A stretch of 64,000 nucleotides of DNA from a virus, in the IMG/VR virus record IMGVR_UViG_3300043427_003402. One strand, given 5' to 3'. Of the stretch, positions 17,240-33,138 are shown piece after piece (the stretch's first letter is position 1; every line of letters begins with the position of its first letter). Below the pieces are notes generated by a model, which did no database searches, was not told the origin of the DNA, and worked only from the letters and a program-made list of their open reading frames with translations. The translations under genes and the position numbers were made by a program.

Positions 17240-17631
17240 AGCTCGAAGCGCAGGTTGTCCCAAGCCCGTTTCAGCTCGCGACGCGTTAGCTGTTGGCCCT
17301 CAACCGGTCTTACCAGTTTGCGCTGCTGAAACCGGGCCAGTTCAGTTTTAAATACTTCTAACCGTGCCTGCTTACCGCTTTTCTGCTGCTCGCCGTCTTC
17401 AATCTGGGATTGTAGCGCGCGCAAGATAACGCCTTCGGGGATCATATCCGCACGGCGCTTACGGGCTAACGCCGCGGCAGAGCGGCAGTCTTCACAGATT
17501 AAAAGCCACTTCTTTCCGCGTGCGGCAGCGCCTTTACGGCGGTCGAACCAACCCTTACAGCGCGTGCACATACCTAAGTTGCCCGTTCCTGGCTCAGCAA
17601 CTCGGTGGGCCGGCCGTTTGCGTCTAGGCAT
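17236..17631 (-). CDS. Basic Zn-finger protein
   Basis: CTRC...CEDC; R/K-rich; ATG 17631 overlaps the upstream stop. Confidence 0.55.
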   Translation of the reverse strand: MPRRKRPAHRVAEPGTGNLGMCTRCKGWFDRRKGAAARGKKWLLICEDCRSAAALARKRRADMIPEGVILRALQSQIEDGEQQKSGKQARLEVFKTELARFQQRKLVRPVEGQQLTRRELKRAWDNLRFEL

Positions 17632-18373
17632 CGTCTGCCCCTGGTACATTTATGCGCTGAATGATTCGTGCAGCGTTGGCGCGGATCAAGAGCAGAATCT
17701 TTTTAATGACCAAAGGGTCTTGCCGTACGCGGAAGGCAGGGATCGTCAACACCTGTAAATTCAACGTGCACTCGAACAGGTCGTCATACTCCTCAGTTAG
17801 TACCGGGCCGTTCAAATCAGGGTACCCTACGTACTGAAGGTTAAAAGCTTGCTGTATGTCTAGGCGGCTAGCGATGAGCGCGCCGCGTATGCGCTGAGCC
17901 AGCAGGGTCGCGCGTAACGAATCGCGGTCAAGCACCTGAATTTGGTAGATCAAGGTTTCGCGCACGGCCCGTCGGTCGTCTTGCGGGGCGTCTGCACCCG
18001 CCATCTTGACGGCGTCTCGCATCGCATGGGTCTCTGCCTGCGCGCGCCCAAACTTTACGACGATTAAAGGCCGCTTATCCCGAGCGGCCATTTCGTTGCG
18101 CCGAAGGTCTTTTGCAATCAGCACCGCGGAGCGCTCCGGATCCTCGGGGAAATAAATAAAATCGTCATCAGTCATGAACCGGTGCTCGATCACGCTGAGG
18201 ATGCCACTCTGCACGAGAAGCGGCAGAAACTCGTAATTGGTTGAGGCGATTGCGCTCAGGTGCGACATCAAGGTCGCAACGGACGCCTGCGCAAACTCGT
18301 TAGGGTCGTTGTTTATTGCAAGCGGGTCGTTGCCGTTAGGGTCGGGGTAACCTGCGAATGGCTCGATCGACAT
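17624..18373 (-). CDS. Putative tail terminator/neck protein
   Basis: 249 aa; KRPLIVVK and YQIQVLDRDSLRATLLAQRI resemble tail-completion proteins. Confidence 0.4.
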   Translation of the reverse strand: MSIEPFAGYPDPNGNDPLAINNDPNEFAQASVATLMSHLSAIASTNYEFLPLLVQSGILSVIEHRFMTDDDFIYFPEDPERSAVLIAKDLRRNEMAARDKRPLIVVKFGRAQAETHAMRDAVKMAGADAPQDDRRAVRETLIYQIQVLDRDSLRATLLAQRIRGALIASRLDIQQAFNLQYVGYPDLNGPVLTEEYDDLFECTLNLQVLTIPAFRVRQDPLVIKKILLLIRANAARIIQRINVPGADDA

Positions 18374-20223
18374 TAGTACTTACCATCTTTCCCTTGCCCG
18401 AAATACTGACCGTGCACGTAAGCGGGCACGGGATTAAACGTATCCCGAATCTGCGTGCGCGCCCCCGTCGCGGCGTTTTGGCGGAAGGTCTGGTTGACGA
18501 ATCGGAACGCTAGGTTAGCCATCCAGTCGTCCTTATGGAGGGCGGCGCGCTCGGTTCCGAGCATAATCGGTTTAACTATTAAACTGTTCTGCTTGAACAC
18601 TGGAACGTGCGAGATGTTCTGGTCCTTCAACTGCTTAACTGTTGCGGGGGTCAAAACCGTATACGGCGAAGCAGTACCGGTTTCGTGTGCAAGGATTCGG
18701 CCTTCAGCTTTCCCTAACTCCACCGTGTCATGAGCGGTGGGTAAATGCTGCTGGATGCTATTCCAGTGCACAACTTCCCCAGGCACGTAGTCGTGCGTTC
18801 CCGGGTGAATAACTTGGCCCAAGTTCAAGATACCGCGCGTCACAACTTCGGTAACACGTGAATTGCTACGGATACCCGCATCGGCATATATCTGCCGAAG
18901 CCTTGACGCGAAAAATTCGCGGCCCGCTTCCATGCCTTTGTGCTCAACCACGTCTACAGGGTTTATCTCGCCGTGAGATAAGGGGTCACCCTTCGCAACC
19001 CGCTGCCCAGGCTTGACTGTAACATCCAAGCCCGGTGCGACATAGTGCTTAATGTTTTTCACTGTCACGTTGAGCCCACCTGCCGCAGCTGGCTCGACGT
19101 GCGTAACCTCGCCCGACACGTGCGCGAGCGTCGCTGCACCTGCAAACATCTTCGGCGCGTGCATAAATTGAAGGATGGTCTGGAGCGGAGATTTGCTTGC
19201 GCCCACGACGCCACCAGCGTGCTTTTGGTTCAAGGCGAGCTGGGTCAAAGGCGCGGTCAAGCCTTGCGCGGCCTTCAAGCCGACGTGCTCACCCACTGGC
19301 GGCAGCCGCCCTTCTTCGTTCAGACCGGTGCATACTGCGCACACGCCTTTTGGCGCGGTGCAGAACAACGGACTGCGTATCTTTACGACGGTGCGCTGCT
19401 TCGCCAACCGCTCCCGCATCACGTTGGTGATAATGTCATTCCGGTGCCCGACGCCCGGTACGTCCTCAGCCAACGCCCGACCAATCAAGTCCGGGCTGTT
19501 CGCGGGCAGCTCGCGGCCGTGCGTAGTCTTACAGTCGTGGTCGGTTACCACCATATCCATGTGAATGGTGTTCAACTCTTTAGCGAACGCGCCCGGATCA
19601 CGTACAGCGGTGTAGGTGTTGACCAAGCCGCGTCTAGCGCCTTGCGCGTGCACATAGAAGTCGATAGGGCTCATTCCCTCACTGAAGCTTCGTTGCGCGA
19701 TTACCGGCAGCAGGTGATTGCTAGTATCGAGGTTTAGTCCCACCATCCCCAGCATCTGCCTGCCCATCGACGTGTCACCGCGTGCACCGGACTTGATCCA
19801 GCTAGTCAAATTATTCGGCCGGCTCTCGATCGCTGCTTTGATGCCGTTGTTTACGTGCTCTTCCACTTTTGCAAACAGCTCTAACTTTTTCTGCTGGAAC
19901 GGTAAGCTGCGGTTCAATTCTGGATTAAGCGCAGCCTCGTGGCGCAGACGCAGCAGCTGCGGCATGTGCGACTTAAACGCGGCGTCGCGAAGGTCTGTAT
20001 GAGGTTTCAGGTCGTTGATGCTGAAGCTCGAGCCCGACTCCAACGCGATCTGGTTACCGACGTCACGAAGATTTTGCACAACTGTCCCGTACTGCTTCGG
20101 GTGATGCTCGGCGATTGTTTGCAAAAGCTTACTTGTACCACCCTTATCCAACGGCCCCTGCAACGCAACGTCCGGCGGTAGCGCGCCTTGAATAAGAAGC
20201 TGCCCAATGGTAGTGGTCGACAT
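18373..20223 (-). CDS. rpoC: RNA polymerase beta' subunit, C-terminal half
   Basis: SGARG, SFSEGMSP, GARRGLVNT (bridge helix), DC.T..G, IRSPLFC..GVCAVC, AAQGLTAPLTQLALNQKHAGG (trigger loop). Confidence 0.92.
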   Translation of the reverse strand: MSTTTIGQLLIQGALPPDVALQGPLDKGGTSKLLQTIAEHHPKQYGTVVQNLRDVGNQIALESGSSFSINDLKPHTDLRDAAFKSHMPQLLRLRHEAALNPELNRSLPFQQKKLELFAKVEEHVNNGIKAAIESRPNNLTSWIKSGARGDTSMGRQMLGMVGLNLDTSNHLLPVIAQRSFSEGMSPIDFYVHAQGARRGLVNTYTAVRDPGAFAKELNTIHMDMVVTDHDCKTTHGRELPANSPDLIGRALAEDVPGVGHRNDIITNVMRERLAKQRTVVKIRSPLFCTAPKGVCAVCTGLNEEGRLPPVGEHVGLKAAQGLTAPLTQLALNQKHAGGVVGASKSPLQTILQFMHAPKMFAGAATLAHVSGEVTHVEPAAAGGLNVTVKNIKHYVAPGLDVTVKPGQRVAKGDPLSHGEINPVDVVEHKGMEAGREFFASRLRQIYADAGIRSNSRVTEVVTRGILNLGQVIHPGTHDYVPGEVVHWNSIQQHLPTAHDTVELGKAEGRILAHETGTASPYTVLTPATVKQLKDQNISHVPVFKQNSLIVKPIMLGTERAALHKDDWMANLAFRFVNQTFRQNAATGARTQIRDTFNPVPAYVHGQYFGQGKDGKY

Positions 20224-20231
20224 GCTCGCTC

Positions 20232-21794
20232 CTATTGTCGCTGCGGGGCGTGAAGGGGGCGCCGTAAAAGGTCCGTCAGTTGGTTATTCAACCGTGTTTT
20301 CTTATTCGCTACCGTGTACGTCCACTCGTCTACCGTGGCCCCTGCGGCCGGATTACGAAACATGCCAAATATCTTCGGCTGCACGCTCACGTAGCGGTTC
20401 ACATGCACTTCGGGCACCGGAGAGCCCGCCCGAATGCCTCGTGCTTCTGCCTGCTGCGTCACCTCGGGGTTGAAGTTAGGGTCGAGGGTTACGTGCAAAG
20501 TAGTTCCTGGAAGGTTGAGGCCCTCCGTGCCCGCAGAGTTAATCACCATGACTCGCTTCTTGCCCTTCATATAATCGTCAATGTGTTGCAGCCGTTCGGC
20601 CTTGCCCTGGTGCGTCTGCCCGACAAACACCCCCGGCTCGTAACCGTGGTGCTTCAGGCCCGCCACCGCGGCGTCTACTCCGCCGGTCACAAGATTCGTG
20701 TAAACAATCGCTTTGTTATTCGGGTCGGCTTTAAGGTGCGAGTCTACGTCCTTCAACGCGCGCTGCAGCTTGGGTGTTGCTAGCGCGCCTGACAAGGCGT
20801 CATGCCGGGCGTCCATCGTATGCACGCTGTTCGCCACTTGGCGCGCGCGAATGATCTTTGCCAGCATACTCCGTGCTTCGCTCGAGCTAACAGGAACGTT
20901 ATTGCGAACCTTGGCCGCAATCGCTGGTGAAACATTTGCCATTGCGTAGTCGTATAATTCTTTTTGGTGGGCGCTCATCTCTACTGGAATATTGTGCACG
21001 ATTTTGCGCGGCATGTTTGTTGCCACCGCCTCTACGGGGACGTAATGAAGATGCTTATCAAGTTCCTCTTTAAGGTAGCGCATGTTTTTAAGCGCTGGCT
21101 CCACGGTCCGGACGCCCATGCCAAACGCAGCAAACGGCCCGTGCGTTTCTACGCGTTGCCCCACGTACATACGATCAAACTGTTTGGGCGTACCAAGCTT
21201 ATGTTTGCCATCTGTCACGATGTCGACAAGCGGGACGATGTCGTGGGGGTGATTCATGACCGGGGAGCCCGAAAGCGCAATAAAATTCTTCACCTTTCGC
21301 CGCGCTTCGCGCATCGCGGAAAAATTAAGCGACTGATCATTACGCCCCTTATGCGCCTCGTCCCAAATAATCGTGTCCGCTTGGGTCTTGGCGACATATG
21401 CGTGCGGATCCTTTCGGAACAACTCGTTGCTTACAACGTAGTAGTGCGCGTTCGGAAGTTCTTGGTCAATCTGAAGGCTGCCTTTTTCATTCTTCGGCCC
21501 GAATTTAAGGGCCTTACTCGTAGTGAATTTGTTTACGCCTTGTTCTATGAAATTTTCCCGCAGGCTCGACGGCACGACGACAAGCGCGCGCTTCGCTTTA
21601 CCCGAATCCCGCAAGTGCTCAAAGATGGCGGCGGAACTCAGCGTCTTACCGGTTCCGACCCCGTGCGCGAGCAAGATTGAGCCGTTGTTAGCGACCGCAC
21701 GGTCTACAGCATCGCGCTGGTGCGGCTGCAGGGTCACGTCTGGCCGCAGCGCGCCCATTTTGGCGAGATAGCACTGGTACGGTGTCATGTACAT
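20232..21794 (-). CDS. SNF2-family (SF2) helicase/ATPase
   Basis: LQPHQ, HGVGTGKT, DEAH, LSGSP, GTEGLNL, QAEARGIR. Confidence 0.9.
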   Translation of the reverse strand: MYMTPYQCYLAKMGALRPDVTLQPHQRDAVDRAVANNGSILLAHGVGTGKTLSSAAIFEHLRDSGKAKRALVVVPSSLRENFIEQGVNKFTTSKALKFGPKNEKGSLQIDQELPNAHYYVVSNELFRKDPHAYVAKTQADTIIWDEAHKGRNDQSLNFSAMREARRKVKNFIALSGSPVMNHPHDIVPLVDIVTDGKHKLGTPKQFDRMYVGQRVETHGPFAAFGMGVRTVEPALKNMRYLKEELDKHLHYVPVEAVATNMPRKIVHNIPVEMSAHQKELYDYAMANVSPAIAAKVRNNVPVSSSEARSMLAKIIRARQVANSVHTMDARHDALSGALATPKLQRALKDVDSHLKADPNNKAIVYTNLVTGGVDAAVAGLKHHGYEPGVFVGQTHQGKAERLQHIDDYMKGKKRVMVINSAGTEGLNLPGTTLHVTLDPNFNPEVTQQAEARGIRAGSPVPEVHVNRYVSVQPKIFGMFRNPAAGATVDEWTYTVANKKTRLNNQLTDLLRRPLHAPQRQ

Positions 21795-21799
21795 ACGCT

Positions 21800-21806
21800 A
21801 ATTATC
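21800..21806 (-). promoter_or_regulatory. GATAATT putative phage promoter element
   Basis: CAGGTGATAATT just after the RNR terminator, a few nt before the helicase ATG. Confidence 0.55.
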
Positions 21807-21810
21807 ACCT

Positions 21811-21849
21811 GAAAATAAAAGCCACTCCCGGAAAGTTTCCGGAAGTGGC
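21811..21849 (-). terminator. Rho-independent terminator after nrdJ
   Basis: GCCACTTCCGGAAA-C-TTTCCGGGAGTGGC followed by TTTTATTTT. Confidence 0.8.
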
Positions 21850-21868
21850 GACCAGTACTGTTAGAGGG

Positions 21869-24800
21869 TTAGCCGCACTTAGAGAAGCCGCAACTGAGGT
21901 CAGAACACTTGCAGCAGCCTTCCTCAAACTTTAAGGCACTGCCGCAATCTGGGCACTCAGGACTCTCACCAAAAATGGTGACAGCCTCATCAACATAAAC
22001 TTGCTCGGTCGACAAGCTTAAATTGCTGAACGACAACTCCGTTTGCAACGCGTCAAGAGCTTCTGAGCCGGCGCCTTGGAAGAACGCGGGAGCAGCTTTG
22101 AGCGCCTTGCCCAGACCGTCCGGGATGCTCAAGACTTTGTTCGGCCCCAAGCCCGCTTGGTCTGCGCTACGGATACCGATCAGCGTCCGTGCTACGTCAT
22201 CCACCGGCGCCCCGTGCTGCAACGCCATGGACGCCAAGCGCCCAATGGCCTCAGCCAAGCTGTGGATCGTACCACCGGAGCGGCCAATCGTGAGCAGCAC
22301 CTCGCGAAGACCAAGCTCGTCGTAGTTGAAGGTGGTCAACATTTTCCCGTTACCGGTGTGGATCACGCTGGTGAAGCCCGCCAACGTCTCGGGACGCGGG
22401 CGCGGCGTACCACCCCTAGTCGCCGTAGGCACCGTGGCTTCCAACTGCGCAGCTTCGGCTAGCTCCTTGCTGGACTTTGTACCGGTGGTAAGCGGTTGGA
22501 ACGAACGCGAACCGTCGCGGTATACGGTGATGCCTTTGCACCCCAGAGACAACGCCATGTCGTACGCGTCAAGCACGTCTGCTACTGTGGCGGTGGCAGG
22601 CAGGTTAATCGTCTTAGACGTGGCCGAGTCGTTAAACCCTTGCAAAATCGCCTGCATCTTAACGTGCGCGTCAGGGCGTATGTCACCGGCGGTAACAAAC
22701 ACCTCGCACAGCTCAGTTAGCTCTTCTTTGCCGAGCCAGTAGTCTAGCGCGCCCGCAGCTGCAGCCGCGTCTACCGAGCCTTGATGCCGCGCCACGATCT
22801 CAAGAATCTCATCGCGTTCAGCTTCGTTAAACGCCGAGAGCGCCGCTACAAACTCTGGATCGCCGTCGCGCATCTCCAAGCCAGCCTGGAAACGCGAAAA
22901 GACTAAGCCAAACAACGGCTCGCAGCCGCCAGTTGTGTCGTGAAACACCGACAACGTCCCTGTTGGCGCAATCGTCGTGGTCGTCGAGTTGCGAATACCG
23001 GTTTCGGTAACTCGGGTTTGGCACTCGACGTAAGTGTCCATGATATGGTGCCAAATCGGTTCCAGCGCTCTTACGGCGTTATCGGAAGCCGTCTGCGCCT
23101 TTTCAATTCGACGCGCCAGCAGGTCTTGGTGGAACGCAACCGACTCGTCCCAATTATTTACAAAATAGGGATAGGCGCCGCGCTCAGTCGCCAAGTCGAT
23201 AGACGCGCGCTTGGCCTCGGCGTCGATAAACGCGTACAGCGCAGCAGCTGTGTTGCGGCCTTCTCTTGAATCGTACGCAAGCCGCAGTTTGAACAACGCC
23301 CGTGCAAGGCCCATAATACCGAGCCCGAGCTTACGGGTAGTCATAGCGATCTCTTTAATTTGTGGAACTTTCGGAACGTACGCGTTGGCTTCTACCACGT
23401 TGTCCATAAACCGAATACTCAGATGAACGGCCGCGCGCAAACCTGACCAGTCAATAATCGCGTCGGGCCCGGAGCCAATAACGAACTGGTCCAACGTGAT
23501 TGAACCTAAGTTGCACGACTCGTAAGGAATCAAAGGCTGTTCCCCGCAGTTCGCAGACAGTATCCCGTCGTGCTCACCGCAGGCGACAAAGTACCGGTGC
23601 GTGTCGTCTACGGTCCCGTTGTACACGTCCGCAAGCTCGCCTGTTCTTACAACTTTTACAACTTTGTGGTTTACAACAGCCTGGTCTTTTTCAGGACGAA
23701 CCCAGCCTAGTCGTTTCATAACAGTGTATTTTGAGCAGCCCACTTCAGCGGCTATTTGCTTAAAGCTCTTGCCACTTTCCCGAAGAGCGGTCAGCTGAGC
23801 GTCGTCGAGGTCGCGACGATAACGGCCATTGTTTTCACCGTCTGTAGGGATTAAGTAGAGCGGGTTACGCTCGTCCCAGACACCGTACATAGGGTTCTTA
23901 TCGCCCTGCATGTGCTCCGAGTTATGCTCAGTACCTAGCTTAATTTCAAGATTCGTAGGCCGGTTGTCACTTCTATCCTCGTTAATGTGGTGACAGTGTT
24001 CAGCCGGATAGTCAGGGCGCCGGCCCGTGTGGCCGCTGACCATGACGTGATGGTACAGCGGGGCCTCAATGCCGTTCGATATTCTCAGGTAGCCTTTCGT
24101 GTTTGCCTTATACCGGTAAACGCTCATCAAAGAGTCGTTAGGTTTCAAGTCTTGAACTTGAACCTTCATACCGTTCCGCAGGTACAAATTATGGTCTAAT
24201 GTGGCCTTCAAGACTGTACCGTCGTCCAAATGTAGCTCTGCAACCTCAACCGCCTGCCGGGTTAACCGGGGCGCGCGCATCAGCTTGACCACGAAATTAC
24301 CTTGATCGTCTTGGGACAACACTTGTACACCGGTGCCGCGCTCCGCAAGGTCTTTGAAAGAGACGTGCCCGTCAACAGTCCATACCTGCGTGTCCCCAGT
24401 CCAGCACGGATTTGTCGCCTCGTACGCACCCAATCTTGGAACAGGGTTGTCACGGTTCATGCGGTCGATAAAGGCCAGACCAGGCTCGCCTGTTGCGTGT
24501 GCCCGCTCCGCGATGTGGCGCCACACCTCACGCGCGCTCAGAAATTCCCCCGTCGGTCCCGAGCGCGGATTGATTAACTCGTAGCGGTCGTCGTCGGCTT
24601 CGAGCGCCGTCAGGAACGCGTCAGTGACTGCAACCGAGACGTTAAAGTTTGTCAGCTGCGACAAGTCGCTTTTGAGGTCAATGAACTCCAAAATGTCAGG
24701 CGAGTCGACACGCAAGATGCCCATGTTCGCGCCGCGCCGAATACCGCCTTGCTTAATAGCCTCTGTGGCGGCGTTAAAAACTTTCATAAAAGGAACTGGC

Positions 24801-25270
24801 CCGGAACTCGCGCCTTTCGTGCTGCCCACAGTGTCGTTTTTGGGCCGCAGGCGCGTGAAAGCGAAGCCGGTTCCGCCACCTGTTTGATGTATAAGCGCCG
24901 CGTGCTTTATCGTGTCAAAAATGCCGGAGAGGTCGTCTTCCACAGGCAGTACGTAGCACGCGCTGAACTGGCCAGTCCGGATACCCGCGTTGGCAAGCGT
25001 CGGCGAGTTAGGCAGAAACTGCCGCCCGCGCATCAATTCAAAAAAAGCTCTGTGGAGCTCTGCAACTTTATCCGCGCCGCCAAACGCGGCTTCGGCCGCC
25101 GCCATCACTTCGGCAGTGCGCCAGTACATCCCGTCTACGTCTTCTAAAATTGTCTGGTCGTCTAACTTGTTGAAATAACGTTTCTCCATGACACTGACGG
25201 CGTTTGCCGACACCGGCGGCGCGGTTTCGACCCACGCCTGGACATCCGAAGGTAAATCCGACAAAAACAT
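21869..25270 (-). CDS. nrdJ: Class II (B12-dependent) ribonucleotide reductase with intein and C-terminal TSCPD/Zn-ribbon region
   Basis: FLPNSPTL, SACYV, GGGTG, QGGIRRGANM, NP|CGEQPL, SCNLGSI, TIAPTGT, SKTIN, KGITVYRDGSR, CPDCG...C.C..CGFSKC; SD GAGGT before ATG 25270. Confidence 0.93.
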   Translation of the reverse strand: MFLSDLPSDVQAWVETAPPVSANAVSVMEKRYFNKLDDQTILEDVDGMYWRTAEVMAAAEAAFGGADKVAELHRAFFELMRGRQFLPNSPTLANAGIRTGQFSACYVLPVEDDLSGIFDTIKHAALIHQTGGGTGFAFTRLRPKNDTVGSTKGASSGPVPFMKVFNAATEAIKQGGIRRGANMGILRVDSPDILEFIDLKSDLSQLTNFNVSVAVTDAFLTALEADDDRYELINPRSGPTGEFLSAREVWRHIAERAHATGEPGLAFIDRMNRDNPVPRLGAYEATNPCWTGDTQVWTVDGHVSFKDLAERGTGVQVLSQDDQGNFVVKLMRAPRLTRQAVEVAELHLDDGTVLKATLDHNLYLRNGMKVQVQDLKPNDSLMSVYRYKANTKGYLRISNGIEAPLYHHVMVSGHTGRRPDYPAEHCHHINEDRSDNRPTNLEIKLGTEHNSEHMQGDKNPMYGVWDERNPLYLIPTDGENNGRYRRDLDDAQLTALRESGKSFKQIAAEVGCSKYTVMKRLGWVRPEKDQAVVNHKVVKVVRTGELADVYNGTVDDTHRYFVACGEHDGILSANCGEQPLIPYESCNLGSITLDQFVIGSGPDAIIDWSGLRAAVHLSIRFMDNVVEANAYVPKVPQIKEIAMTTRKLGLGIMGLARALFKLRLAYDSREGRNTAAALYAFIDAEAKRASIDLATERGAYPYFVNNWDESVAFHQDLLARRIEKAQTASDNAVRALEPIWHHIMDTYVECQTRVTETGIRNSTTTTIAPTGTLSVFHDTTGGCEPLFGLVFSRFQAGLEMRDGDPEFVAALSAFNEAERDEILEIVARHQGSVDAAAAAGALDYWLGKEELTELCEVFVTAGDIRPDAHVKMQAILQGFNDSATSKTINLPATATVADVLDAYDMALSLGCKGITVYRDGSRSFQPLTTGTKSSKELAEAAQLEATVPTATRGGTPRPRPETLAGFTSVIHTGNGKMLTTFNYDELGLREVLLTIGRSGGTIHSLAEAIGRLASMALQHGAPVDDVARTLIGIRSADQAGLGPNKVLSIPDGLGKALKAAPAFFQGAGSEALDALQTELSFSNLSLSTEQVYVDEAVTIFGESPECPDCGSALKFEEGCCKCSDLSCGFSKCG
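23549..24406 (-). mobile_element. Intein, 286 aa, with HNH homing endonuclease
   Basis: Starts CWTGDTQV; block B ATLDH; HCHHINEDRSDNRPTNL..H..EH; HTH; ends DVYNGTVDDTHRYFV...ILSAN|C. Confidence 0.88.
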
Positions 25271-25345
25271 AGCTACCTCTAATAAAGCGAGCACGACAAA
25301 CGCGTCCTTTTAAACGCGCGCGTAGGGGTACCTGCGGCAAACTAC

Positions 25346-28300
25346 CTATTCGATCGAAATCGGATCGTTAATACGAATCCGTCCCTCTCGGTAAGCAGCG
25401 ATTGCCTCCTCTTTTGTCCGGAACCGTGCTACGGGGCTGCTACCCTGCGGCGCGGTCGCCTTCCACAAACCCAGTACCGTCTCTTGCGACGGCACGTGCA
25501 TTGGCGCATGATTTAGTGGGTTAAACAAGTTGTTTGACGGTAACATTTTGTAAACATCCTTGACGCCTTCCGGCGTAACGGGAATGTTCACACCCATCTG
25601 GTCTCCGTCAAAGTCAGCGTTTAAGCCCTTCAGCACCAACGTGTTCATGTGTAAACTCTTTCCGTCAACAATACGGGGCTTCAGCCCCACCAAATTAAAC
25701 TTATGCAAACTAGGTGCGCGGCTCAGGACGAGAGGAGTTTTGGCCATCACGTTTAGCACCGCTTGAGAAGCTGTTGGCGTCTTATCCTCGAAATGGCGGG
25801 CGGCTACCGGCAACGGCATACCGCCCTGAACAAGATCACCTATCGCGTGGTTGCGATAAATTTTCATAGCCATGTCGTGGGGAATTCCAACTTCATCTAT
25901 ACCAAGAGACGGATCGGGAACGATAACCCCGCGGCCAGTAATGTCCTGGCGGCGGCTAAGAAGTTTGCTTTGGAAATAACCATCTTTTGCCTGCCCGCTT
26001 CCTGCAATCACTTTCAGGAACCCTTGTGCAGGTCGTTCACCTCGCATGTTTTCAACCACCGGGTCAAGCCCCTGCACTTTTTCAAACGCCTCGTGTAAAC
26101 CCTTGCGTAGGTCCCGTATCGTGGTAGGGTCGCCGATCTTTTTATGCTCTGTGAGCTGATCGTTGACCAACATCAGCGATTTGTACAGGTGATTTGCGTC
26201 AGATACTACGAGGCGGCCAGTTTCGGAATCAGGGTATATTGGCCGCATAGCGGGAGGAATTACCGGAACGTGATTCAAAATGTAAGCGTCTTGCGGTTTT
26301 AAATCTGCTTGGTCTAAAGCTTTAAGAAACTTTAATTGTTTGTAGATAGCGTCCTTTTTTGAGACAGAATTAGTGCTGTTTACTTCTGAACTTAGTTGTT
26401 TGATCTTAGTCTTTACATCAATCTTTGATAACTGTTCTTTAATGTGTTCGGCGCCGTGGTTGTATAGCGTATCAGCGTATGACTGCTTCGTCAAGCCCAG
26501 CAGCGTACGCGTTGCGTTAGCGAATAAAGGGTTGACAATCGGCTCCGTCAAATTGATGTGCGACCAGCGGTTGCCGACAAGGCCGCCCGTGCTACGGGTG
26601 TCGAAAAGTCCACCCTCTTCGGGACGGTAAGGCAGGCCGGTCGTAGGATCAGGTTTATCGTGCACCGTTAGCGGCTGCGTGACTGCGCCCGAAGACATGG
26701 TTAGCACGTCCTTGTTAGTCATCGGAAGCAGCGCAATCGAGTTGCCTTCCTTTTTAAGGTTCAAGCCCATACCTTGAAGCATACCCTCAAACTTTTTGAA
26801 CGCAAACGTGGGCTTTGCCGGCGGCAGCGGCTTGCCCTGCCACATGGCCTGGAGCACCTCGGGGTTCGCTTCGCTCTTGTGCTGCACGTCCTGTAACAGC
26901 GCACGGCTGCCTTGGGCGAGAAGACTGTACAGGTCAAGCGTGCCGATGCTCTTGGCGCCTTCTTCGCCGCCTTTCGCTGGTCGAAGGTCAATGTCGTACT
27001 CGCCGCCAGACCGCGCGCTAAACCCGGTTTCGGCCTGCTTGAACAGCTTCAGCATGTACATCGGCCCCATCAACGTACGGCCAAGAGAACGCTTCGTAGT
27101 CGGATCAAAAAGCTCCTCGGTTCCATCCGTGCCCGCCTTACGCGCCAGCTCGTTCACTTTTTCCCAGACGTTCCCGGTTTGAAAGTGCGGAAATACTTGC
27201 TGCTTGATTCCAAGCTTCTGTAACGACTTAGCGGCAATCGTCTCGAATATCTGCCCGTTGTTCATACGTGAGGTCAACCCGGCAGAGTTCAGGATCACGT
27301 CGGGGATCTGCCCGTCGGCAGTCCGTGGCGCCTCGTGGTCGGGGATGATTGCAGAGATGACGCCTTTGTTACCGTGCCGACCTGAAAGCTTGTCCCCGAC
27401 CTGCACTGTGGCTTTGGCGGAGATGGCGACTTTTATCCCCTCGGGCGTCTTCTCCACCGCCATGACTTTTCCTTCGTACGGCCGGTCCCACACGACGGCC
27501 TTATTTGCGTAGGGCTGGCGGAAGCCTTTGTTTGCGCGCCCGAGAATCAACTCTTCCGGCGTAACGAGGCGTTTGCGCAAGCCCAACATAATAGGGTCGC
27601 CGTTCGTTAACACCTGCCCGACCTTCACAACGCCGTGCTCATCCACCTTCGCAAAGTGCTTATTTTCAAACTCGGTCGGGAAGTGCGCCTTGAACTTCGC
27701 CAAGTCAAAAACGGAGCGTTCGTCAATGAGCGCCTCTTCGGTGTGCAGGTGCTGGCTGACCAGCTTGTCGGCGCCTTGACGCGTCACCACGATCGCGTCT
27801 TCGTGGTTCAGTCCCTTATACGGCATAAACGCGACGGTTAGATTTTTACCGAGTGCAGCAGCAGCGCCGGTCGTAAAGTTGTTGCCCGCGAGCAACTGCC
27901 CGGGTGTCACCTTGTCGCCAGGCTTGACTTGCAGGTCGCCGTGCAAGAAACTGCCGCCATTCAAGGGAAACTCGTGCGGGTAGTTTACTTTGACGACTTG
28001 CCCTTGGGCGGTCTTCAAATGAATGACACCGGGATCAATTTTGTGAACAGTGCCTGCGGCGGGGCTTCGTACAACGAAGTCTTCCAGCGCGTTACGCGCA
28101 AACGGCGTGTCCACGATTGGCGGTTCGCGGTCCACTAAACTTACTGCCTGCCCCAGCATCTTCGCGCCCATCGCAGCGCGGTGCGCGTGTGTCGACTGGA
28201 TGAACGGCACCATGGTGGTAGACACTGTGAACTGCGAACCTGTCGGAATGCGGTACTGTACGTGCTGCGGCTTGGCGTCAATCACCATACCCTGGTGCAC

Positions 28301-29635
28301 TGCGCGCACCAAGCCGTGCTCTGTCGGCTCCGTATCGTGCGCAACGACCGAGTCGAAGAGTTCAACCGGCGTCTTGAACTCGGGTTTACCTGTCCGTGCG
28401 TTGAGCACGCGGGTCATTAACTGCTTACCCTGCTTCGTAGCACTCAGCGCAAGACGCACGTCCACGCCCGCGCTGGCGTTGTCGGGCGTACGTACGGGGT
28501 CGATAAACCCCATGCTTGATGGGTGAACGGCGCGAACCTCCGAGCCGATCGCGTGGGTATCACCAATTGCGCCCTCGCCCAGAGACGACAGTTTAAACGC
28601 GTTTTCCTTCATCTCAAGCGGGTTAATTTGCATGACGTGGTTAGACTGCGCGGACTGCGTGAAAAACTGATCAATGAACGGCTGCACATACCGGTGGAGG
28701 CCCACGTCCCCCAGCGCTTCGGCTTTATCCACGCGAGGGCGAAGTTTATACGCCAAGTTAAACCGGTTTTTCTCCAGTCGTTCGCGCACGAAATCTTCGA
28801 CGCCGTGAATCTCCGTAAACGCGAGCTGGTCTTTACCCGTCGGGTCTTTTTCTTTCCGGTGCACTGCCAAGACTTGTTTCGCAGCGGCCTGCAGCACGGG
28901 CGCGGTTATTTTGTCGGCCTCAAGGCCTAAAGTTAAACGGTTGACCCCGGGATCCATCTGCACATTGTGAAAATACTCGCGGATATTTGTCCGCAGCTCT
29001 GGCAGCGCCGTCGGCACGGGCTTGTTTGGTTGAATCATGCTGTGCATTGTACTGAGCGCCGCGTGCTCGTCTTTCTCCGAAAACGGCGTGTCGAAAGCCT
29101 TGCCCAAGCCTAAACTGTCGGCACCGAGAACGTGCTTCAGCACTGGGTTTAGCGGAACGCGAGTGTTGCCGAACTTGATGTTGAACTGATTTGCTTCGGG
29201 GTCGAGGGTCAGCGCGAAGTTCCGGCCTTTTGCCAAGTTGAAGTCTGCGACAGCCTCGCCAAGACGATTAACTTTGGTGTACGCTGCCGGCCGCAATCGC
29301 CGTTGCATGTTCACCTGGTACTCCTTACCGTTAATGACAAACGTGTGCCGGTTCGTAGGTGTGGGCAGAAAACCAATCCGCACAACCTTTTTGTCCAGCA
29401 GCTTGTTGTCGGCCCCGTGCATGGCTACAGTGGCCTTGACAGGCACGCCCCAAGTTCCGCCAGACATGATCGCCTGCTTCTGCCCGTTGTAGTCCGTCGG
29501 GTCAGGCATATCCGGCGCGTGAACCTGCGTCACTGTGAGCGTGCGGTTCGCGTTGGTCACCACAGGGAAAGTGTTTTTAACGCCCTCACTGAACTGGTGC
29601 ATCATGGCTTGAAAAGTTTCTTGAGGTGTACGCAC
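25346..29635 (-). CDS. rpoB-rpoC: RNA polymerase beta subunit fused to the beta' N-terminal half
   Basis: FVINGKE, HPSSMGFIDPVRTPD, RAAMGAKMLGQA, NHEDAI, GDKLSGRHGNKGVI, SRMNNGQ; then beta' motifs GGLFD, VPVIPP.MRP, LSRRQD.TGRGVI, RAPSLH, NADFDGD (25601-25621). Confidence 0.95.
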   Translation of the reverse strand: MRTPQETFQAMMHQFSEGVKNTFPVVTNANRTLTVTQVHAPDMPDPTDYNGQKQAIMSGGTWGVPVKATVAMHGADNKLLDKKVVRIGFLPTPTNRHTFVINGKEYQVNMQRRLRPAAYTKVNRLGEAVADFNLAKGRNFALTLDPEANQFNIKFGNTRVPLNPVLKHVLGADSLGLGKAFDTPFSEKDEHAALSTMHSMIQPNKPVPTALPELRTNIREYFHNVQMDPGVNRLTLGLEADKITAPVLQAAAKQVLAVHRKEKDPTGKDQLAFTEIHGVEDFVRERLEKNRFNLAYKLRPRVDKAEALGDVGLHRYVQPFIDQFFTQSAQSNHVMQINPLEMKENAFKLSSLGEGAIGDTHAIGSEVRAVHPSSMGFIDPVRTPDNASAGVDVRLALSATKQGKQLMTRVLNARTGKPEFKTPVELFDSVVAHDTEPTEHGLVRAVHQGMVIDAKPQHVQYRIPTGSQFTVSTTMVPFIQSTHAHRAAMGAKMLGQAVSLVDREPPIVDTPFARNALEDFVVRSPAAGTVHKIDPGVIHLKTAQGQVVKVNYPHEFPLNGGSFLHGDLQVKPGDKVTPGQLLAGNNFTTGAAAALGKNLTVAFMPYKGLNHEDAIVVTRQGADKLVSQHLHTEEALIDERSVFDLAKFKAHFPTEFENKHFAKVDEHGVVKVGQVLTNGDPIMLGLRKRLVTPEELILGRANKGFRQPYANKAVVWDRPYEGKVMAVEKTPEGIKVAISAKATVQVGDKLSGRHGNKGVISAIIPDHEAPRTADGQIPDVILNSAGLTSRMNNGQIFETIAAKSLQKLGIKQQVFPHFQTGNVWEKVNELARKAGTDGTEELFDPTTKRSLGRTLMGPMYMLKLFKQAETGFSARSGGEYDIDLRPAKGGEEGAKSIGTLDLYSLLAQGSRALLQDVQHKSEANPEVLQAMWQGKPLPPAKPTFAFKKFEGMLQGMGLNLKKEGNSIALLPMTNKDVLTMSSGAVTQPLTVHDKPDPTTGLPYRPEEGGLFDTRSTGGLVGNRWSHINLTEPIVNPLFANATRTLLGLTKQSYADTLYNHGAEHIKEQLSKIDVKTKIKQLSSEVNSTNSVSKKDAIYKQLKFLKALDQADLKPQDAYILNHVPVIPPAMRPIYPDSETGRLVVSDANHLYKSLMLVNDQLTEHKKIGDPTTIRDLRKGLHEAFEKVQGLDPVVENMRGERPAQGFLKVIAGSGQAKDGYFQSKLLSRRQDITGRGVIVPDPSLGIDEVGIPHDMAMKIYRNHAIGDLVQGGMPLPVAARHFEDKTPTASQAVLNVMAKTPLVLSRAPSLHKFNLVGLKPRIVDGKSLHMNTLVLKGLNADFDGDQMGVNIPVTPEGVKDVYKMLPSNNLFNPLNHAPMHVPSQETVLGLWKATAPQGSSPVARFRTKEEAIAAYREGRIRINDPISIE

Positions 29636-29637
29636 GG

Positions 29638-30927
29638 TCAGATGGCCTCCGACGCTTCTACAGCTTCGCCGTTCATCGCTCTGTGCATGTCCTCGAGCTC
29701 TTTTGCTGTGTTAACTTCCTCGGTTGCGGTGAGCCCGTACCTGTCCATGCTTAACGTAGGCACCCGGCTCTGAAAGAAATGCTTCCGCTCGTTGTGCGAC
29801 AGTGCGTTACCGAGCACCCCAGCGGTCATACCCGCCAGCGACGCGTTGGTCGCGGCGTTTAGCACGCGTAAACCGGCGCCTGTTCCAGGTCCCACATGAC
29901 GCGCTAATTCGCGAACGGCCGCGTGTGGGCGCGCTAAACCGTATGCGGCAGCCAGCACGGATGGCCCCGCGGTCATTAAGTAGGGGTGTCGCGCCATAAA
30001 TGGGATGCGCTCCCCTGATTCCTGCTCAAATTTATGTACCGCTTCATCGTGCTTTTTGACACGCGAAACGGCTCGTGTCAACGCGCCAGCTCCAAGCCCG
30101 AGAGCCGCGCCGCCCAGTAAGCCCGCGACGCCGCCCCCGGCGCGCACGGTACCTGCGCCCAGCTCCTTCGCGAGGTCTGGTACATGGCGCACTAGCGCGT
30201 GCGCCGCTGCTAGCCCCGCTAAGCCTCCCAAGGTCGCGCCGCCGGCCGCAAAATTCAAATGCTGACCCCGGCGTGTTGCTGACTCCTCGATGTTTTGCGG
30301 CCGCTCAACCAGCCCGGGGTGCAACAGCCGCGGATCCGCGAGTACCGCAGCTGACTTGCCCATCTGATACGGGGCAAAATAAGCTTCACGAGCCGCCTGT
30401 GCGTAGTTCGCCGCCAGTGGCGTCACCGTGAGCCCGCTAGCGAGCGCCCCAACGCCGGCACCAGCGAGGCGGCCTAGGCCGATACTTGGAGCAGCGAGCG
30501 CGCCCACAGCCGCGCCGGCCAACACTGGTGCGGAGTTGACGAGGTACGGGTGCCTCTCCATAAACGGTAGCACTCGGCCCGTCTGCTGTTCAAACTCATG
30601 AGCCGCCGCTGCGTGGCGGTTGAGCTTATCGTTGAAGCGCTGCGCAACGGCCGTCGCCCACCCTAACCCCCCTCCGATAGCCATAGCCGTTCGTACCGCG
30701 TCTGGGCCGGTAAGCGCCGCTACTCGCCTCGCATTCGCAGGGCTGCTGCCCCAACGAGTACTTGGCAGCAAGCGATTAAGGGCGAAAGTCCCTGCGCCAC
30801 CCAGCGCGGCGCCGACCACTGTACCGAGGAATCTTTTATCCGCGCGCTCCTCGCCCGCCTCTAGCGCGGCTTGGCCTGACGGCTTGGCTGCAAGATTTGG
30901 ATGAAGCAGGATACGATCAAATGACAT
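29638..30927 (-). CDS. Two-repeat glycine-zipper virion polyprotein (HPY family)
   Basis: Units LLHP.L...G-zippers...H..A.H.FEQ..G...PFM.RHPYL separated by GKSAA. Confidence 0.7.
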   Translation of the reverse strand: MSFDRILLHPNLAAKPSGQAALEAGEERADKRFLGTVVGAALGGAGTFALNRLLPSTRWGSSPANARRVAALTGPDAVRTAMAIGGGLGWATAVAQRFNDKLNRHAAAAHEFEQQTGRVLPFMERHPYLVNSAPVLAGAAVGALAAPSIGLGRLAGAGVGALASGLTVTPLAANYAQAAREAYFAPYQMGKSAAVLADPRLLHPGLVERPQNIEESATRRGQHLNFAAGGATLGGLAGLAAAHALVRHVPDLAKELGAGTVRAGGGVAGLLGGAALGLGAGALTRAVSRVKKHDEAVHKFEQESGERIPFMARHPYLMTAGPSVLAAAYGLARPHAAVRELARHVGPGTGAGLRVLNAATNASLAGMTAGVLGNALSHNERKHFFQSRVPTLSMDRYGLTATEEVNTAKELEDMHRAMNGEAVEASEAI

Positions 30928-30947
30928 GCTGATCTCCTAGGGCTGGC

Positions 30948-31613
30948 CTACGCCGTATAAATTGAGTCGCTGTCTTCTAGCTCATTTGCACGCAACTTTA
31001 GGTGCGGGAAAGCGTCCGCTAGTTGGTCGCGTCGCATCTTGTTAATGAGCGGCTCCGCTAGGGTGCTCCCGATCGCGGCCCCTAACCCCAACCCCGCTAC
31101 CGGATGCCGCCCTAGCGCGGTGGCGGCGGCCGCGCCAACGGCCATACCCGCCGGCCCCGCGATGAATGGCGCTGCCATGGCTGCAGCGTAAGGGTGCCGC
31201 ACCAAAAAGGGGAGCGGTTTACCGCCATGCGCATAATAGTTATCCACGGCCGCCTGATGCTTGTGGACCTTATCCAGCGTACTGGTGACGGCGTGCGCAC
31301 CTACGCCTGCGATCGAACCAAAAGACGCGCTAACAAGTGGCGCGACCGCATGCGCGTAGCGGGCCAAAACACGCAGGGACGGGTCGCTGACAGTCTTAGG
31401 GATAAGTTTTCGCGCAAGCAGCCCCGCTCCTGCGCCTAGTGACGCCCCTATACCGATTTTCGCTGCAAGGGCTTCGCGGCGATCCGCCAGTTCGTTGAGG
31501 TCCGCCGGAGCGTTGCCTTTCCACGGGTAGCGCAAAATTGTGTCGGGCGCGTAAGGTTCGGGCGGTGCGGCTGCCGCGCGCTTTAAGAGGTACAGGTGAT
31601 AAGGTAACGACAT
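30948..31613 (-). CDS. Glycine-zipper virion protein (HPY family) with leader MSLPYHLYLLKRAA
   Basis: Single copy of the unit repeated in 29638..30927 (KH..AV..Y...G..LPFLVRHPY). Confidence 0.7.
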   Translation of the reverse strand: MSLPYHLYLLKRAAAAPPEPYAPDTILRYPWKGNAPADLNELADRREALAAKIGIGASLGAGAGLLARKLIPKTVSDPSLRVLARYAHAVAPLVSASFGSIAGVGAHAVTSTLDKVHKHQAAVDNYYAHGGKPLPFLVRHPYAAAMAAPFIAGPAGMAVGAAAATALGRHPVAGLGLGAAIGSTLAEPLINKMRRDQLADAFPHLKLRANELEDSDSIYTA

Positions 31614-31632
31614 CTACTATCCCCTTCCCTCA

Positions 31633-32334: not shown

Positions 32335-33138
32335 CTAACTCCGTAAATAATCTACAGCGCGAGTATAGCGTTGCGTCTGCTCCGCAATTTCCGTGCGTAG
32401 CGCCTGGATGCGCGCGGGCGTTACCTTAAGCTTTTCCGCGAGTTGCTGCCCGCTTAACACTGGCGCGCCCTTGTACCCGACGGTGTGTTCGAACACCACT
32501 TTGTGCACAGGGCTGAAATCGTGGTGCAAAAAGTCCAGCACCATTTCCCGGTGGCCAGTTTGTTCCATAGCCGGCTGGTTCGCTCCCGCAGCTTCGGTGG
32601 CGGAATACAGGCTCGTTTGCGCCCGGTGCAGGTCGCCTAGCCGGTGCGGCGCAACACCGAGGCGCTGCGCAATTTGCGTCGGTGTCGGTTCCGTACCGAG
32701 CTCTAGGCGTAAGTCGGCTTGTGCTGTTATCGCCTTATTCCGCATATACGCGCGATCAAGGGGCATGCGAACATCTGACCTGTGCGTCATTACAAACCCG
32801 TCTAACTTCCGTAAGTGGTTTGTAAAGTGCGTGCCCAGCGTACCTTTAGCAGGGTCGTAGCTGGGCAGGGATTGCGCCATCAAACGCTTTGCTTCCGCCT
32901 CCAAGACGACCCGCGGCAGCCCTGACGCCTCCCACCGCGAGACCTCGCGATGCACTAACGGCGCGTACTGCTCAAAAACTGCGTTAGCTGAATTCTTTTT
33001 CGGCGCGGGGCTTTCCGTAGCCGCCGCTCCGGTGCTCGCCACACTATCGGCGCCTAACATCTGCTCCTCGAACGAGGGGCGCTTGACCGCAGGTTTGGCA
33101 GCCTGTTTCTTTTTAAGCTGCTCAATAAAATTAGCCAC
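32335..33138 (-). CDS. Sigma70-family RNA polymerase sigma factor
   Basis: Region 2 YAPLV...SYDPAKG..GTH; VRMP; region 3 ELGTEPTPTQIAQRLGV; region 4 HTH SGQQLAEKLKVTPARIQ. Confidence 0.82.
   Translation of the reverse strand: MANFIEQLKKKQAAKPAVKRPSFEEQMLGADSVASTGAAATESPAPKKNSANAVFEQYAPLVHREVSRWEASGLPRVVLEAEAKRLMAQSLPSYDPAKGTLGTHFTNHLRKLDGFVMTHRSDVRMPLDRAYMRNKAITAQADLRLELGTEPTPTQIAQRLGVAPHRLGDLHRAQTSLYSATEAAGANQPAMEQTGHREMVLDFLHHDFSPVHKVVFEHTVGYKGAPVLSGQQLAEKLKVTPARIQALRTEIAEQTQRYTRAVDYLRS

What the first reader, a model, noticed from the sequence alone, without database searches (positions are those of the whole stretch)
18373..29635. Phage multisubunit RNA polymerase with unusual architecture: beta fused to beta'-N, beta'-C separate
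Seen: one 1429-aa ORF carries the beta motifs and continues without a stop (junction about 26700-26800) into beta', through NADFDGD, ending EEAIAAYREGRIRINDPISIE. The rest of beta' (starting MSTTTIGQLLI, with bridge helix and trigger loop) lies 5 kb downstream. The beta' N-terminal Zn-binding cysteines are missing (GGLFDTRSTGGLVGNRWSHINL), and no alpha or omega subunit is recognisable in the window. Known: full beta-beta' fusions occur in Helicobacter and Wolbachia; cyanobacteria split beta' (rpoC1/rpoC2) close to, but slightly after, this point; phiKZ-like RNAPs are split differently. Inference: a streamlined two-chain, possibly alpha-independent RNAP with both catalytic barrels on one chain.
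Basis: partly seen in the sequence, partly recalled or inferred. Interest (0 to 1): 0.82.

Follow-up and report, generated by a model that had tools for sequence, protein, structure and literature searches.

The report
Fused-then-split phage RNA polymerase
A large uncultured phage encodes its own bacterial-type RNA polymerase as two chains (all of beta joined to the front half of beta-prime, and the back half separately). This layout is shared by a big, almost unstudied phage lineage that seems to need no alpha or omega subunit and, in its one cultured member, carries the enzyme inside the virus particle.

Summary
Window 25346-29635(-) is one 1429-aa ORF holding a complete beta, joined at nt 26740/26741 to beta' up to about E. 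coli residue 558. Window 18373-20223(-) encodes the rest of beta' (about E. coli 570-1366). The beta' zinc-binding domain is deleted.

It is not an artefact or a one-off. At least 146 IMG/VR contigs, over 100 metagenome protein clusters, Salmonella phage Arash and Vibrio phages D69/D148/D181 carry the same enzyme. About half encode beta-beta' as a single ~2050-aa chain. The rest are cut at exactly the window's site, and on rooted trees the cut forms nest within fused ones, so the two-chain form is derived.

Seven complete or near-complete genomes hold one RNAP copy each (shown for five), no alpha or omega match, and sigma-70-family genes.

The window's sigma-like gene (32335-33138) and SNF2 helicase (20232-21794) match Arash gp10 and gp217. 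These, with both RNAP chains, are abundant in Arash virions (PMC10585845).

Best reading: an alpha/omega-free, sigma-dependent, probably virion-carried RNAP. Packaging and alpha-independence are inferred, not shown here.

I found no paper describing the architecture. This scan found the same layout earlier on other DNA (e1-5811429, e1-5351584, e1-5466908).

The parts
25346..29635 (-). Gene for the beta-beta'N fusion chain (1429 aa, GTG start). aa 1-965 are the complete beta; aa 966-1429 are beta' from about E. coli residue 19-21 to about 558.
   Evidence: Pfam Rpb2_3, Rpb2_6, Rpb1_1, Rpb1_2. NCBIfam rpoB, rpoC, rpoC1_cyan and the beta/beta' fusion models. Alignment to Salmonella RpoB/RpoC. N-terminus conserved in relatives.
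26738..26743 (-). Beta/beta' junction (codons 965/966). The last beta residue is followed with no linker by beta' lacking its first ~18 residues.
   Evidence: The same junction is present in all 26 aligned family members (consensus).
26570..26575 (-). Site of the deleted beta' N-terminal zinc-binding domain (between G1021 and N1022; E. coli beta' 68-99 absent).
   Evidence: Absent in the whole family.
25601..25621 (-). Catalytic NADFDGD loop (aa 1339-1345).
   Evidence: D1341, D1343 and D1345 are invariant in alignment A1.
21869..25294 (-). Intervening cargo gene: ribonucleotide reductase large subunit (1141 aa) interrupted by an intein with an HNH endonuclease.
   Evidence: Pfam Ribonuc_red_lgC 2.6e-113, Intein_splicing, HNH_3. 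Also found in the gap of relative L008.
21821..21849 (-). Strong intrinsic-terminator-like hairpin (13-bp stem followed by a T run) between the RNR and helicase genes.
   Evidence: This is a consensus match only.
20232..21794 (-). SNF2-family helicase (520 aa), orthologue of the Arash virion helicase gp217. It carries a 17-aa N-terminal extension (MYMTPYQCYLAKMGALR) of the Tyr-helix / K-x-A leader type seen on other proteins of this phage.
   Evidence: Pfam SNF2-rel_dom and Helicase_C. phrog_62. tblastn of gp217: 30% identity over 506 aa, E 7e-55. N-termini. gp217 is in the Arash virion proteome.
18373..20223 (-). Gene for the beta'C chain (616 aa), corresponding to E. coli beta' ~570-1366. 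It holds the bridge helix, a trigger loop without SI3, the second Zn site and region H.
   Evidence: Pfam Rpb1_4 and Rpb1_5. rpoC_TIGR positions 549-1067. The AF2 model (pLDDT 80.5) aligns over residues 1-616 to solved beta' chains at Z 33-35. Motifs.
32335..33138 (-). Divergent sigma-70-family factor (267 aa), homologue of the Arash virion sigma gp10.
   Evidence: Pfam Sigma70_r3 7e-5. PDB phmmer hits to SigA/FliA regions 2-3. BLASTP to gp10: 30% over 115 aa, E 4e-13. The top 50 PDB Foldseek hits of the AF2 model are all sigma-70-family chains. A region-4-like HTH is visible in the alignment.
17624..18373 (-). 249-aa ORF of unknown function whose start overlaps the beta'C stop. It is kept just downstream of beta'C in the two closest relatives. 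Whether it belongs to the system is uncertain.
   Evidence: L007, L008. No Pfam or PHROG hit.

Best explanation
What it is. The two genes encode the core of a phage-borne RNA polymerase of bacterial type. Chain 1 is a complete, insertion-free beta covalently continued into the N-terminal, Mg-binding half of beta'. Chain 2 is the C-terminal half of beta'. The two chains assemble non-covalently, as gamma and beta'' do in cyanobacteria.

How it arose. The lineage's ancestral state is a single ~2050-aa beta-beta' chain. In the clade that holds this phage and Salmonella phage Arash, that gene was cut once (or possibly twice) in a variable surface loop at E. coli beta' ~558/570. Cargo genes then accumulated between the halves (here RNR and an SNF2 helicase).

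How it works (inferred). The enzyme has no alpha or omega. Covalent tethering of beta to beta' is inferred to replace the alpha-dimer assembly platform. Promoter recognition is inferred to use phage sigma-70-family factors, because the beta flap-tip helix and the beta' clamp helices are retained and a sigma gene lies 2.7 kb upstream.

Life cycle (by analogy). By analogy with Arash, the core, the gp10-like sigma and the SNF2 helicase are made late, packed into the capsid and injected to start early transcription. The same single enzyme, with another sigma, would serve later stages. Its rifampicin pocket is substituted, so it is predicted to be rifampicin-insensitive.

Shown versus inferred. Shown here: architecture, homology, distribution, the derived status of the split, absence of alpha/omega homologues, and orthology to Arash virion proteins. 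Inferred: alpha-independence, sigma use, packaging in this phage, and rifampicin insensitivity.
For: Architecture and active-site motifs.

Lineage and split:
- over 100 protein clusters of two length classes.
- fused forms are colinear with P0001+P0002, with only 3-5 residues between them.
- at least 146 IMG/VR loci.
- 38 fused and 33 split loci, all cut at the same site, with beta'C always downstream on the same strand.
- conserved start M..TT.GQ in 23 split loci.
- FastTree and IQ-TREE rooted on four bacteria put every split form in one clade (99*/98*) nested among fused lineages.
- AU test p 0.061, so a single origin is not rejected.

No alpha or omega: PF01000, PF01193 and PF01192 found nothing in Arash and D69. 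PF01000 and PF01192 found nothing in five IMG/VR genomes estimated 91-100% complete. The controls were positive in 14 of 14 cellular genomes.

One RNAP copy per genome.

Sigma.

Virion link: the Arash proteome lists gp206, gp216, gp217 and gp10 among the most abundant virion proteins. The window's helicase and sigma are their homologues.

Retained sigma-docking elements and the Rif-pocket changes Q513N, D516M, H526N, R529K.

Compactness: only lineage-specific insertions and the zinc-binding domain are missing.
Against: No experiment exists for this phage. Packaging is transferred from a relative whose RNAP is only ~33% identical.

HMM absence of alpha and omega cannot exclude a very divergent analogue or the use of host alpha and omega.

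The Arash paper itself notes that abundant infection-stage enzymes might contaminate purified virions.

The SNF2 helicase is not universal in the lineage: at E<=1e-5 it was found in 1 of the 5 further genomes searched.

The RNAP chains themselves carry no obvious N-terminal targeting leader.

The fused P0029 group nests inside the split clade with support 86-88. The history therefore needs either a re-fusion or two cuts at the same site.
Confidence: 0.7

Rival explanations
1. The phage supplies only the two large subunits, and the enzyme assembles on host alpha2 (and omega), like the beta-beta' fusions of Helicobacter and Wolbachia. It is therefore not alpha-independent.
For: The chains are clearly bacterial-type. 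NCBIfam rpoB and rpoC are the best models, and the whole of P0002 superposes on bacterial beta'. Natural cellular fusions still use alpha (established knowledge).
Against: No alpha or omega gene was found in seven genomes of the lineage. The enzyme is packed in Arash virions, and the paper reports no alpha there, though host proteins may not have been searched. phiKZ/AR9 enzymes show that two-barrel RNAPs can do without alpha (PMC7598289).
Confidence: 0.2
2. It is a non-virion, middle/late RNA polymerase. Host RNAP transcribes the early genes, and the virion signal in Arash is carry-over of an abundant intracellular enzyme.
For: The Arash authors mention this possibility. The RNAP chains show no targeting leader. 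There is only one RNAP set per genome.
Against: gp206 had the highest spectral count of all Arash virion proteins, and gp216, gp217 and gp10 had similar counts per residue. The genes sit in the structural/late module next to terminase, giant virion-type proteins and fibre genes. The helicase partner carries an N-terminal leader of the type shared by other proteins here.
Confidence: 0.15
3. The two halves are rejoined into one chain, by RNA splicing (an intron holding the intervening genes) or by protein trans-splicing (a split intein).
For: Mobile elements do invade this gene. Inteins occur in many relatives, and there is a group I intron with a homing endonuclease in Vibrio phages D181/D148.
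Against: No intron model matches window 17000-34000. The gap holds two complete genes and a terminator-like hairpin. The chain ends are colinear with the fused forms to within 3-5 residues, which leaves no room for intein halves. Every split beta'C has its own start codon.
Confidence: 0.02
4. Assembly or sequencing artefact: a missed stop at the beta/beta' junction, or a false stop at the split.
For: None found.
Against: The same junction and the same cut are present in dozens of independent assemblies and in two cultured phage groups. Peptide coverage of Arash gp206 was 100%.
Confidence: 0.01

Closest known systems
RNA polymerase of Salmonella phage Arash (OQ632216: gp206 1525 aa + gp216 606 aa, with sigma gp10 and helicase gp217; PMC10585845) and of Vibrio phages D69/D148/D181
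   Same: They share the beta-beta'N fusion, the cut site, the missing zinc-binding domain, beta'C downstream on the same strand, a homologous sigma and SNF2 helicase, and the absence of alpha and omega.
   Different: Identity is only 31-33%. The gap contents and gene order differ: in Arash the helicase follows beta'C, here it precedes it. Arash's enzyme is annotated as 'beta' and "beta'", and the architecture is not discussed in the paper.
Single-chain beta-beta' RNAPs of uncultured relatives (~2000-2150 aa, e.g. P0029, P0054, P0120)
   Same: They belong to the same family and are colinear over the whole length, with the same junction and the same zinc-binding-domain deletion.
   Different: They are not cut. 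On rooted trees they form the basal lineages.
Natural beta-beta' fusions of Helicobacter and Wolbachia (NCBIfam PRK09603, PRK14844)
   Same: Beta's C-end is joined to beta's N-end in one polypeptide. These are the best-scoring NCBIfam models for P0001.
   Different: They are cellular, ~2840-2890 aa and uncut. They keep the zinc-binding domain and work with alpha and omega (established knowledge). P0001 scores far below their cut-offs (360 vs 5372 bits).
Cyanobacterial and plastid split beta' (gamma/RpoC1 + beta''/RpoC2)
   Same: Beta' is cut between the catalytic region and the bridge helix, and the halves assemble non-covalently.
   Different: The cut is 16-18 residues further downstream. Beta is a separate chain, beta'' carries a huge SI3 insertion, and alpha and omega are present.
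phiKZ/AR9-type multisubunit RNAPs of jumbo phages (PMC7598289, PMC7824862)
   Same: They are phage-encoded two-barrel RNAPs without alpha and omega, and a virion-packed form exists.
   Different: Those enzymes are very divergent and are cut into 4-5 pieces at other sites. They come as two paralogous sets (virion and non-virion) and have no sigma homologue. Here there is one set, close to bacterial RNAP, fused rather than fragmented, with sigma-70-family genes.

Membership tests
Bacterial-type multisubunit RNAP large subunits (beta, beta') | Two double-psi beta-barrels with the beta GNKG lysine motif and the beta' NADFDGD Mg-binding loop | tested here: met
   SGRHGNKGV and NADFDGD are present. 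The three Asp are invariant in alignment A1.
Bacterial-type multisubunit RNAP large subunits (beta, beta') | Bridge helix, trigger loop, second Zn site and region H of beta' | tested here: met
   Alignment. The AF2 model of P0002 aligns over residues 1-616 to solved beta' chains, Z 33-35.
Bacterial-type multisubunit RNAP large subunits (beta, beta') | Beta' N-terminal zinc-binding domain (four Cys) | tested here: not met
   A 32-residue deletion in all family members.
Bacterial-type multisubunit RNAP large subunits (beta, beta') | Core completed by an alpha dimer and omega | tested here: not met
   No PF01000, PF01193 or PF01192 match in seven complete or near-complete genomes of the lineage (PF01193 searched in Arash and D69 only); controls 14 of 14 positive. 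Use of host subunits cannot be tested with these tools.
Arash-type phage RNAP lineage (unnamed) | Seamless beta-beta' junction, zinc-binding domain deleted, family motif G[FIV][LI]DP..TP in place of the bacterial GRVCPIETPEG | tested here: met
Arash-type phage RNAP lineage (unnamed) | Cut at E. coli beta' ~558/570, with beta'C downstream on the same strand | tested here: met
   33 of 71 loci share exactly this cut. The window groups inside the split clade.
Arash-type phage RNAP lineage (unnamed) | RNAP chains, sigma and helicase present in virions | not testable with these tools
   Shown only for Arash by mass spectrometry. Here only the orthology of sigma and helicase is shown.
phiKZ/AR9-type jumbo-phage RNAPs | Beta and beta' each fragmented; two paralogous sets; no sigma homologue | tested here: not met
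   There is one copy per genome, beta is intact and fused, and sigma-70-family genes are present. Family features taken from PMC7598289 and PMC7824862.
Cyanobacterial/plastid gamma + beta'' split | Cut at the rpoC1/rpoC2 boundary; SI3 insertion in the trigger loop | tested here: not met
   The cut is 16-18 residues earlier. SI3 is absent.
Sigma-70 family (for ORF 32335-33138) | Regions 2, 3 and 4 in order | tested here: inconclusive
   Sequence hits are below the curated cut-offs: Pfam r3 23.3 bits vs 25.3, and PDB phmmer E 5e-4 over regions 2-3. Fold search gives only sigma-70-family chains in the top 50, but with low TM (0.22-0.29) for this flexible multi-domain model. A region-4-like HTH is seen in the alignment.

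The most novel reading that the evidence does not exclude
This lineage's enzyme is a self-sufficient, minimal bacterial-type RNA polymerase. One or two phage chains plus a phage sigma-70-family factor, with no alpha or omega, would carry out promoter-specific transcription. The enzyme would be delivered ready-made from the capsid. That would make it the first sigma-dependent viral multisubunit RNAP and a third class of phage multisubunit RNAP beside the phiKZ and AR9 types.
Probability: 0.45. Interest if true: 0.85.

Novelty: new variant of a known kind. Interest (0 to 1): 0.68.

Why it matters
Reviews up to 2026 divide large phages into two groups. One group has very divergent, fragmented, sigma-less RNAPs (phiKZ/AR9). 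The other has sigma factors but no RNAP. This lineage has both a near-bacterial RNAP and sigma factors, in one or two chains and without the alpha platform thought to be obligatory for bacterial-type enzymes.

If alpha-independence holds, it is a natural minimal model for RNAP assembly and for sigma-dependent initiation. It would also be a compact orthogonal transcription module, and a data point on how often large-subunit fusions and splits arise.

Phage Arash is culturable, so every inference made here can be tested.

Tried and rejected
- Whole-genome search of the window's own genome: none is held.
- megablast of the region against phage records found no match.
- A genome-contig scan with the family alignment found only four MAG contigs and no isolate genome. 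It therefore gave no host and no bacterial outgroups. Outgroups were taken from bacterial contigs mislabelled as phage.
- The idea that a homing endonuclease made the cut: the gaps hold varied cargo, namely leader-bearing ~250-aa proteins, LigD-like PrimPol and ferritin. Only one LAGLIDADG ORF was found, in L070. This idea is neither supported nor excluded.
- The D181 'split' inside beta is a group I intron, not a protein-level split.
- Intron or intein rejoining of the window's halves: rejected.
- A capsid-targeting leader on the RNAP chains: none. The conserved N-terminus is part of beta.
- A shared promoter motif in intergenic regions: none seen by eye, only terminator-like hairpins.
- PHROGs gave nothing for the eight neighbouring unknown ORFs.
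- The second 1429-aa ORF (44004-48293) is not an RNAP.
- Seven literature searches found no description of the architecture (review read).
Full report
**Observation.** On the minus strand, the window holds a 1429-aa ORF (25346-29635), an RNR gene (21869-25294), an SNF2 helicase gene (20232-21794) and a 616-aa ORF (18373-20223).
- Pfam places Rpb2_3 and Rpb2_6, then Rpb1_1 and Rpb1_2, in the first ORF, and Rpb1_4 and Rpb1_5 in the last.
- Aligned with Salmonella RpoB/RpoC, the homologue of the beta C-end (MGLNLKKEGN) runs straight into the homologue of beta' residues ~19-21 onward. The junction is codons 965/966, nt 26740/26741.
- The beta' zinc-binding domain (E. coli 68-99) is deleted.
- The first chain ends at about beta' 558 and the second begins at about 570.
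- NCBIfam models agree. P0001 stops at rpoC_TIGR position 533 and P0002 starts at 549. P0001 stops at 551 of 619 of cyanobacterial gamma, and P0002 residue 26 equals position 8 of cyanobacterial beta''.
- An AlphaFold model of P0002 (pLDDT 80.5) superposes over residues 1-616 on solved beta' chains: E. coli 570-1366 and S. aureus 557-1182, Z 33-35. Cyanobacterial beta'' chains begin at model residue 16-18.

**An active enzyme of bacterial type.**
- The catalytic NADFDGD, the beta GNKG motif, the bridge helix, a trigger loop without SI3, the second Zn site and region H are kept.
- Compared with E. coli, only lineage-specific insertions (beta SI1 and SI2, beta' SI3), short loops, the beta' N-terminal tail and the zinc-binding domain are missing.
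- The beta flap-tip helix and the beta' clamp helices, which are the docking sites of sigma regions 4 and 2 (established knowledge), are recognisable.
- Four rifampicin-contact positions are substituted (Q513N, D516M, H526N, R529K). Insensitivity to rifampicin is an inference from the known resistance positions.

**Not a one-off.**
- tblastn finds the same full-length protein in Salmonella phage Arash (gp206, 1525 aa; beta'C is gp216, 606 aa) and in Vibrio phages D69/D148/D181, at 31-33% identity.
- The metagenome protein search returns over 100 clusters of two kinds. One kind is ~1420-1470 aa, like the window. The other is ~2000-2150 aa and also carries Rpb1_5. Many hold inteins.
- The long forms are colinear with P0001 followed by P0002, with only 3-5 residues between them.
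- A scan of IMG/VR with the family alignment gave at least 146 loci. Of the 71 where both halves are visible, 38 are one ORF and 33 are cut at exactly the window's site. In all of them beta'C lies 0.7-4.8 kb downstream on the same strand, with its own start codon just before TT.GQ.
- The gaps hold varied cargo: a ~250-aa family with K-x-A-type leaders in 12 loci, LigD-like PrimPol in 5, ferritin in 4, and a LAGLIDADG ORF in 1.
- Among 185,579 prokaryote genomes, only four MAG contigs carry the family.

**Direction of change.** FastTree (123 rows) and IQ-TREE (41 rows), rooted on four bacterial RpoB+RpoC concatenates, make the phage family monophyletic. They put all split forms into one clade (support 99 and 98) nested among fused lineages. 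A small fused group (P0029) sits inside that clade at support 86-88. An AU test does not reject a single clade of all split forms (p 0.061). The two-chain form is therefore derived from a single-chain enzyme, by one cut plus a possible re-fusion or by two cuts. The outgroup covers only two phyla, and the long branch between phage and bacteria limits what can be said about origin.

**Other subunits.**
- Six-frame HMM searches found no alpha NTD, alpha dimerisation domain or omega in the complete genomes of Arash and D69.
- They found no alpha NTD or omega in five IMG/VR genomes estimated 91-100% complete, two of them with terminal repeats.
- All 14 control genomes were positive.
- Each of these five genomes has one RNAP copy, unlike phiKZ-type phages with two sets.
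- Sigma region 2 is found in Arash (gp196, gp10), in D69 and in the window's closest complete relative G001. It is found only weakly or not at all in the others.

**The window's sigma.** ORF 32335-33138 gives a sub-threshold Sigma70_r3 hit and PDB sequence hits to SigA/FliA regions 2-3. It has 30% identity (E 4e-13) to Arash gp10 but not to gp196. Its alignment shows a region-4-like HTH. The top 50 PDB fold matches of its AlphaFold model (pLDDT 71) are all sigma-70-family chains.

**Virion link.** In the Arash paper (PMC10585845), gp206 has the highest spectral count of the virion proteome (3516). gp216 (1210), helicase gp217 (1148) and sigma gp10 (467) follow. gp196 is not in the part of the virion protein table that I read. 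Of 21 Arash proteins around the RNAP, only gp217 and gp10 have homologues in the window: 30% over 506 aa with E 7e-55, and E 9e-11. The conserved module is therefore the two RNAP chains, this sigma and this helicase, and all four are virion proteins in Arash.

Two further points fit this reading. The window's helicase has a 17-aa N-terminal extension of the Tyr-helix / K-x-A type carried by several other proteins of this phage, and helicase orthologues in relatives have similar short leaders. The genes also lie in the structural module, next to terminase, giant ORFs without Pfam hits and fibre-like paralogues. Packaging in this phage is still an inference, and the helicase is not universal in the lineage.

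**Alternatives.**
- An artefact is excluded by conservation and by the Arash peptide data.
- Rejoining of the halves is very unlikely. No intron model matches, there is no room for intein halves, and complete genes plus a strong terminator-like hairpin (21821-21849) lie in the gap.
- The apparent extra split in Vibrio phages D181/D148 is a group I intron (100.7 bits) with a homing endonuclease.
- Use of host alpha and omega, and a purely intracellular role, remain open and are scored as rivals.

**Literature and earlier notes.** The two jumbo-phage RNAP reviews and a 2026 review know only the phiKZ/AR9 type. They state that RNAP-encoding phages lack sigma, while sigma-encoding ones lack RNAP. 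The searches found no paper on a phage beta-beta' fusion, and the Arash paper does not comment on it. Subscription journals are not covered by the library.

This scan has met the same architecture before on other genomes, with concordant conclusions (e1-5811429, e1-5351584, e1-5466908). I reached the points above independently before reading those notes, and the tests are cited here.

**Verdict.** This is a real member of a large, essentially undescribed phage RNAP lineage. The architecture, its distribution and its derived nature are solid. Alpha-independence, sigma dependence and delivery from the virion are well-motivated inferences that can be tested in phage Arash.

Noticed in passing
window 8846-11839 (+): The large terminase subunit (GpA_ATPase) is interrupted by an intein with a LAGLIDADG endonuclease.
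   Followed up: no
window 21869-25294 (-): The RNR large subunit carries an intein (about aa 311-582) with an HNH endonuclease and an HTH domain. A TSCPD domain lies at the C-end.
   Followed up: no
window 48583-57543 (-): Seven consecutive paralogues share an N-terminal ~40-aa module (MKKKL.VGSQ.DINAAFDGGAVDTSVTY...). They have Big_2, fn3 or F5/8-type-C domains and look like a diversified fibre or receptor-binding set.
   Followed up: no
window 33784-48293 (-): Four large ORFs (1404, 487, 1524 and 1429 aa) run in a row with almost no Pfam hits. One is by coincidence the same length as the RNAP fusion chain but is unrelated to it.
   Followed up: partly
window intergenic 21795-21868, 49351-49407, 53508-53711, 57544-57606, 60511-60666, 62329-62374: Classical hairpin-plus-T-run terminator-like sites punctuate the long minus-strand operons, often directly before the next ribosome-binding site.
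   Followed up: no
window 29638-30927 and 30948-31613 (-): The two ORFs just upstream of the RNAP gene are paralogues of each other and have no Pfam or PHROG hit. The upstream ORF's stop lies 2 nt from the RNAP start codon.
   Followed up: no
L006 5476-5756 (Vibrio phage D181; also D148): A group I intron (RF00028, 100.7 bits) followed by a homing-endonuclease gene interrupts the beta part of the RNAP gene. The sister phage D69 lacks it.
   Followed up: yes
L044 15921-19637: In one relative the beta'C gene is 1239 aa, about twice the usual length, so it has an unexamined C-terminal extension.
   Followed up: no
L040 14321-15814, L058 7846-9462 and three more loci: A LigD-like primase-polymerase plus 3'-phosphoesterase gene sits between the two RNAP genes in five relatives. 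A ferritin-like gene sits there in four.
   Followed up: partly
L007 (G001) helicase ORF upstream of 15687: In the closest complete relative, the open frame of the SNF2 helicase extends up to ~335 aa upstream of the region matching the window's helicase. The most distant candidate start reads LTTPWDAYQAQKQAA, the same leader type as window ORF 6241-7020.
   Followed up: no
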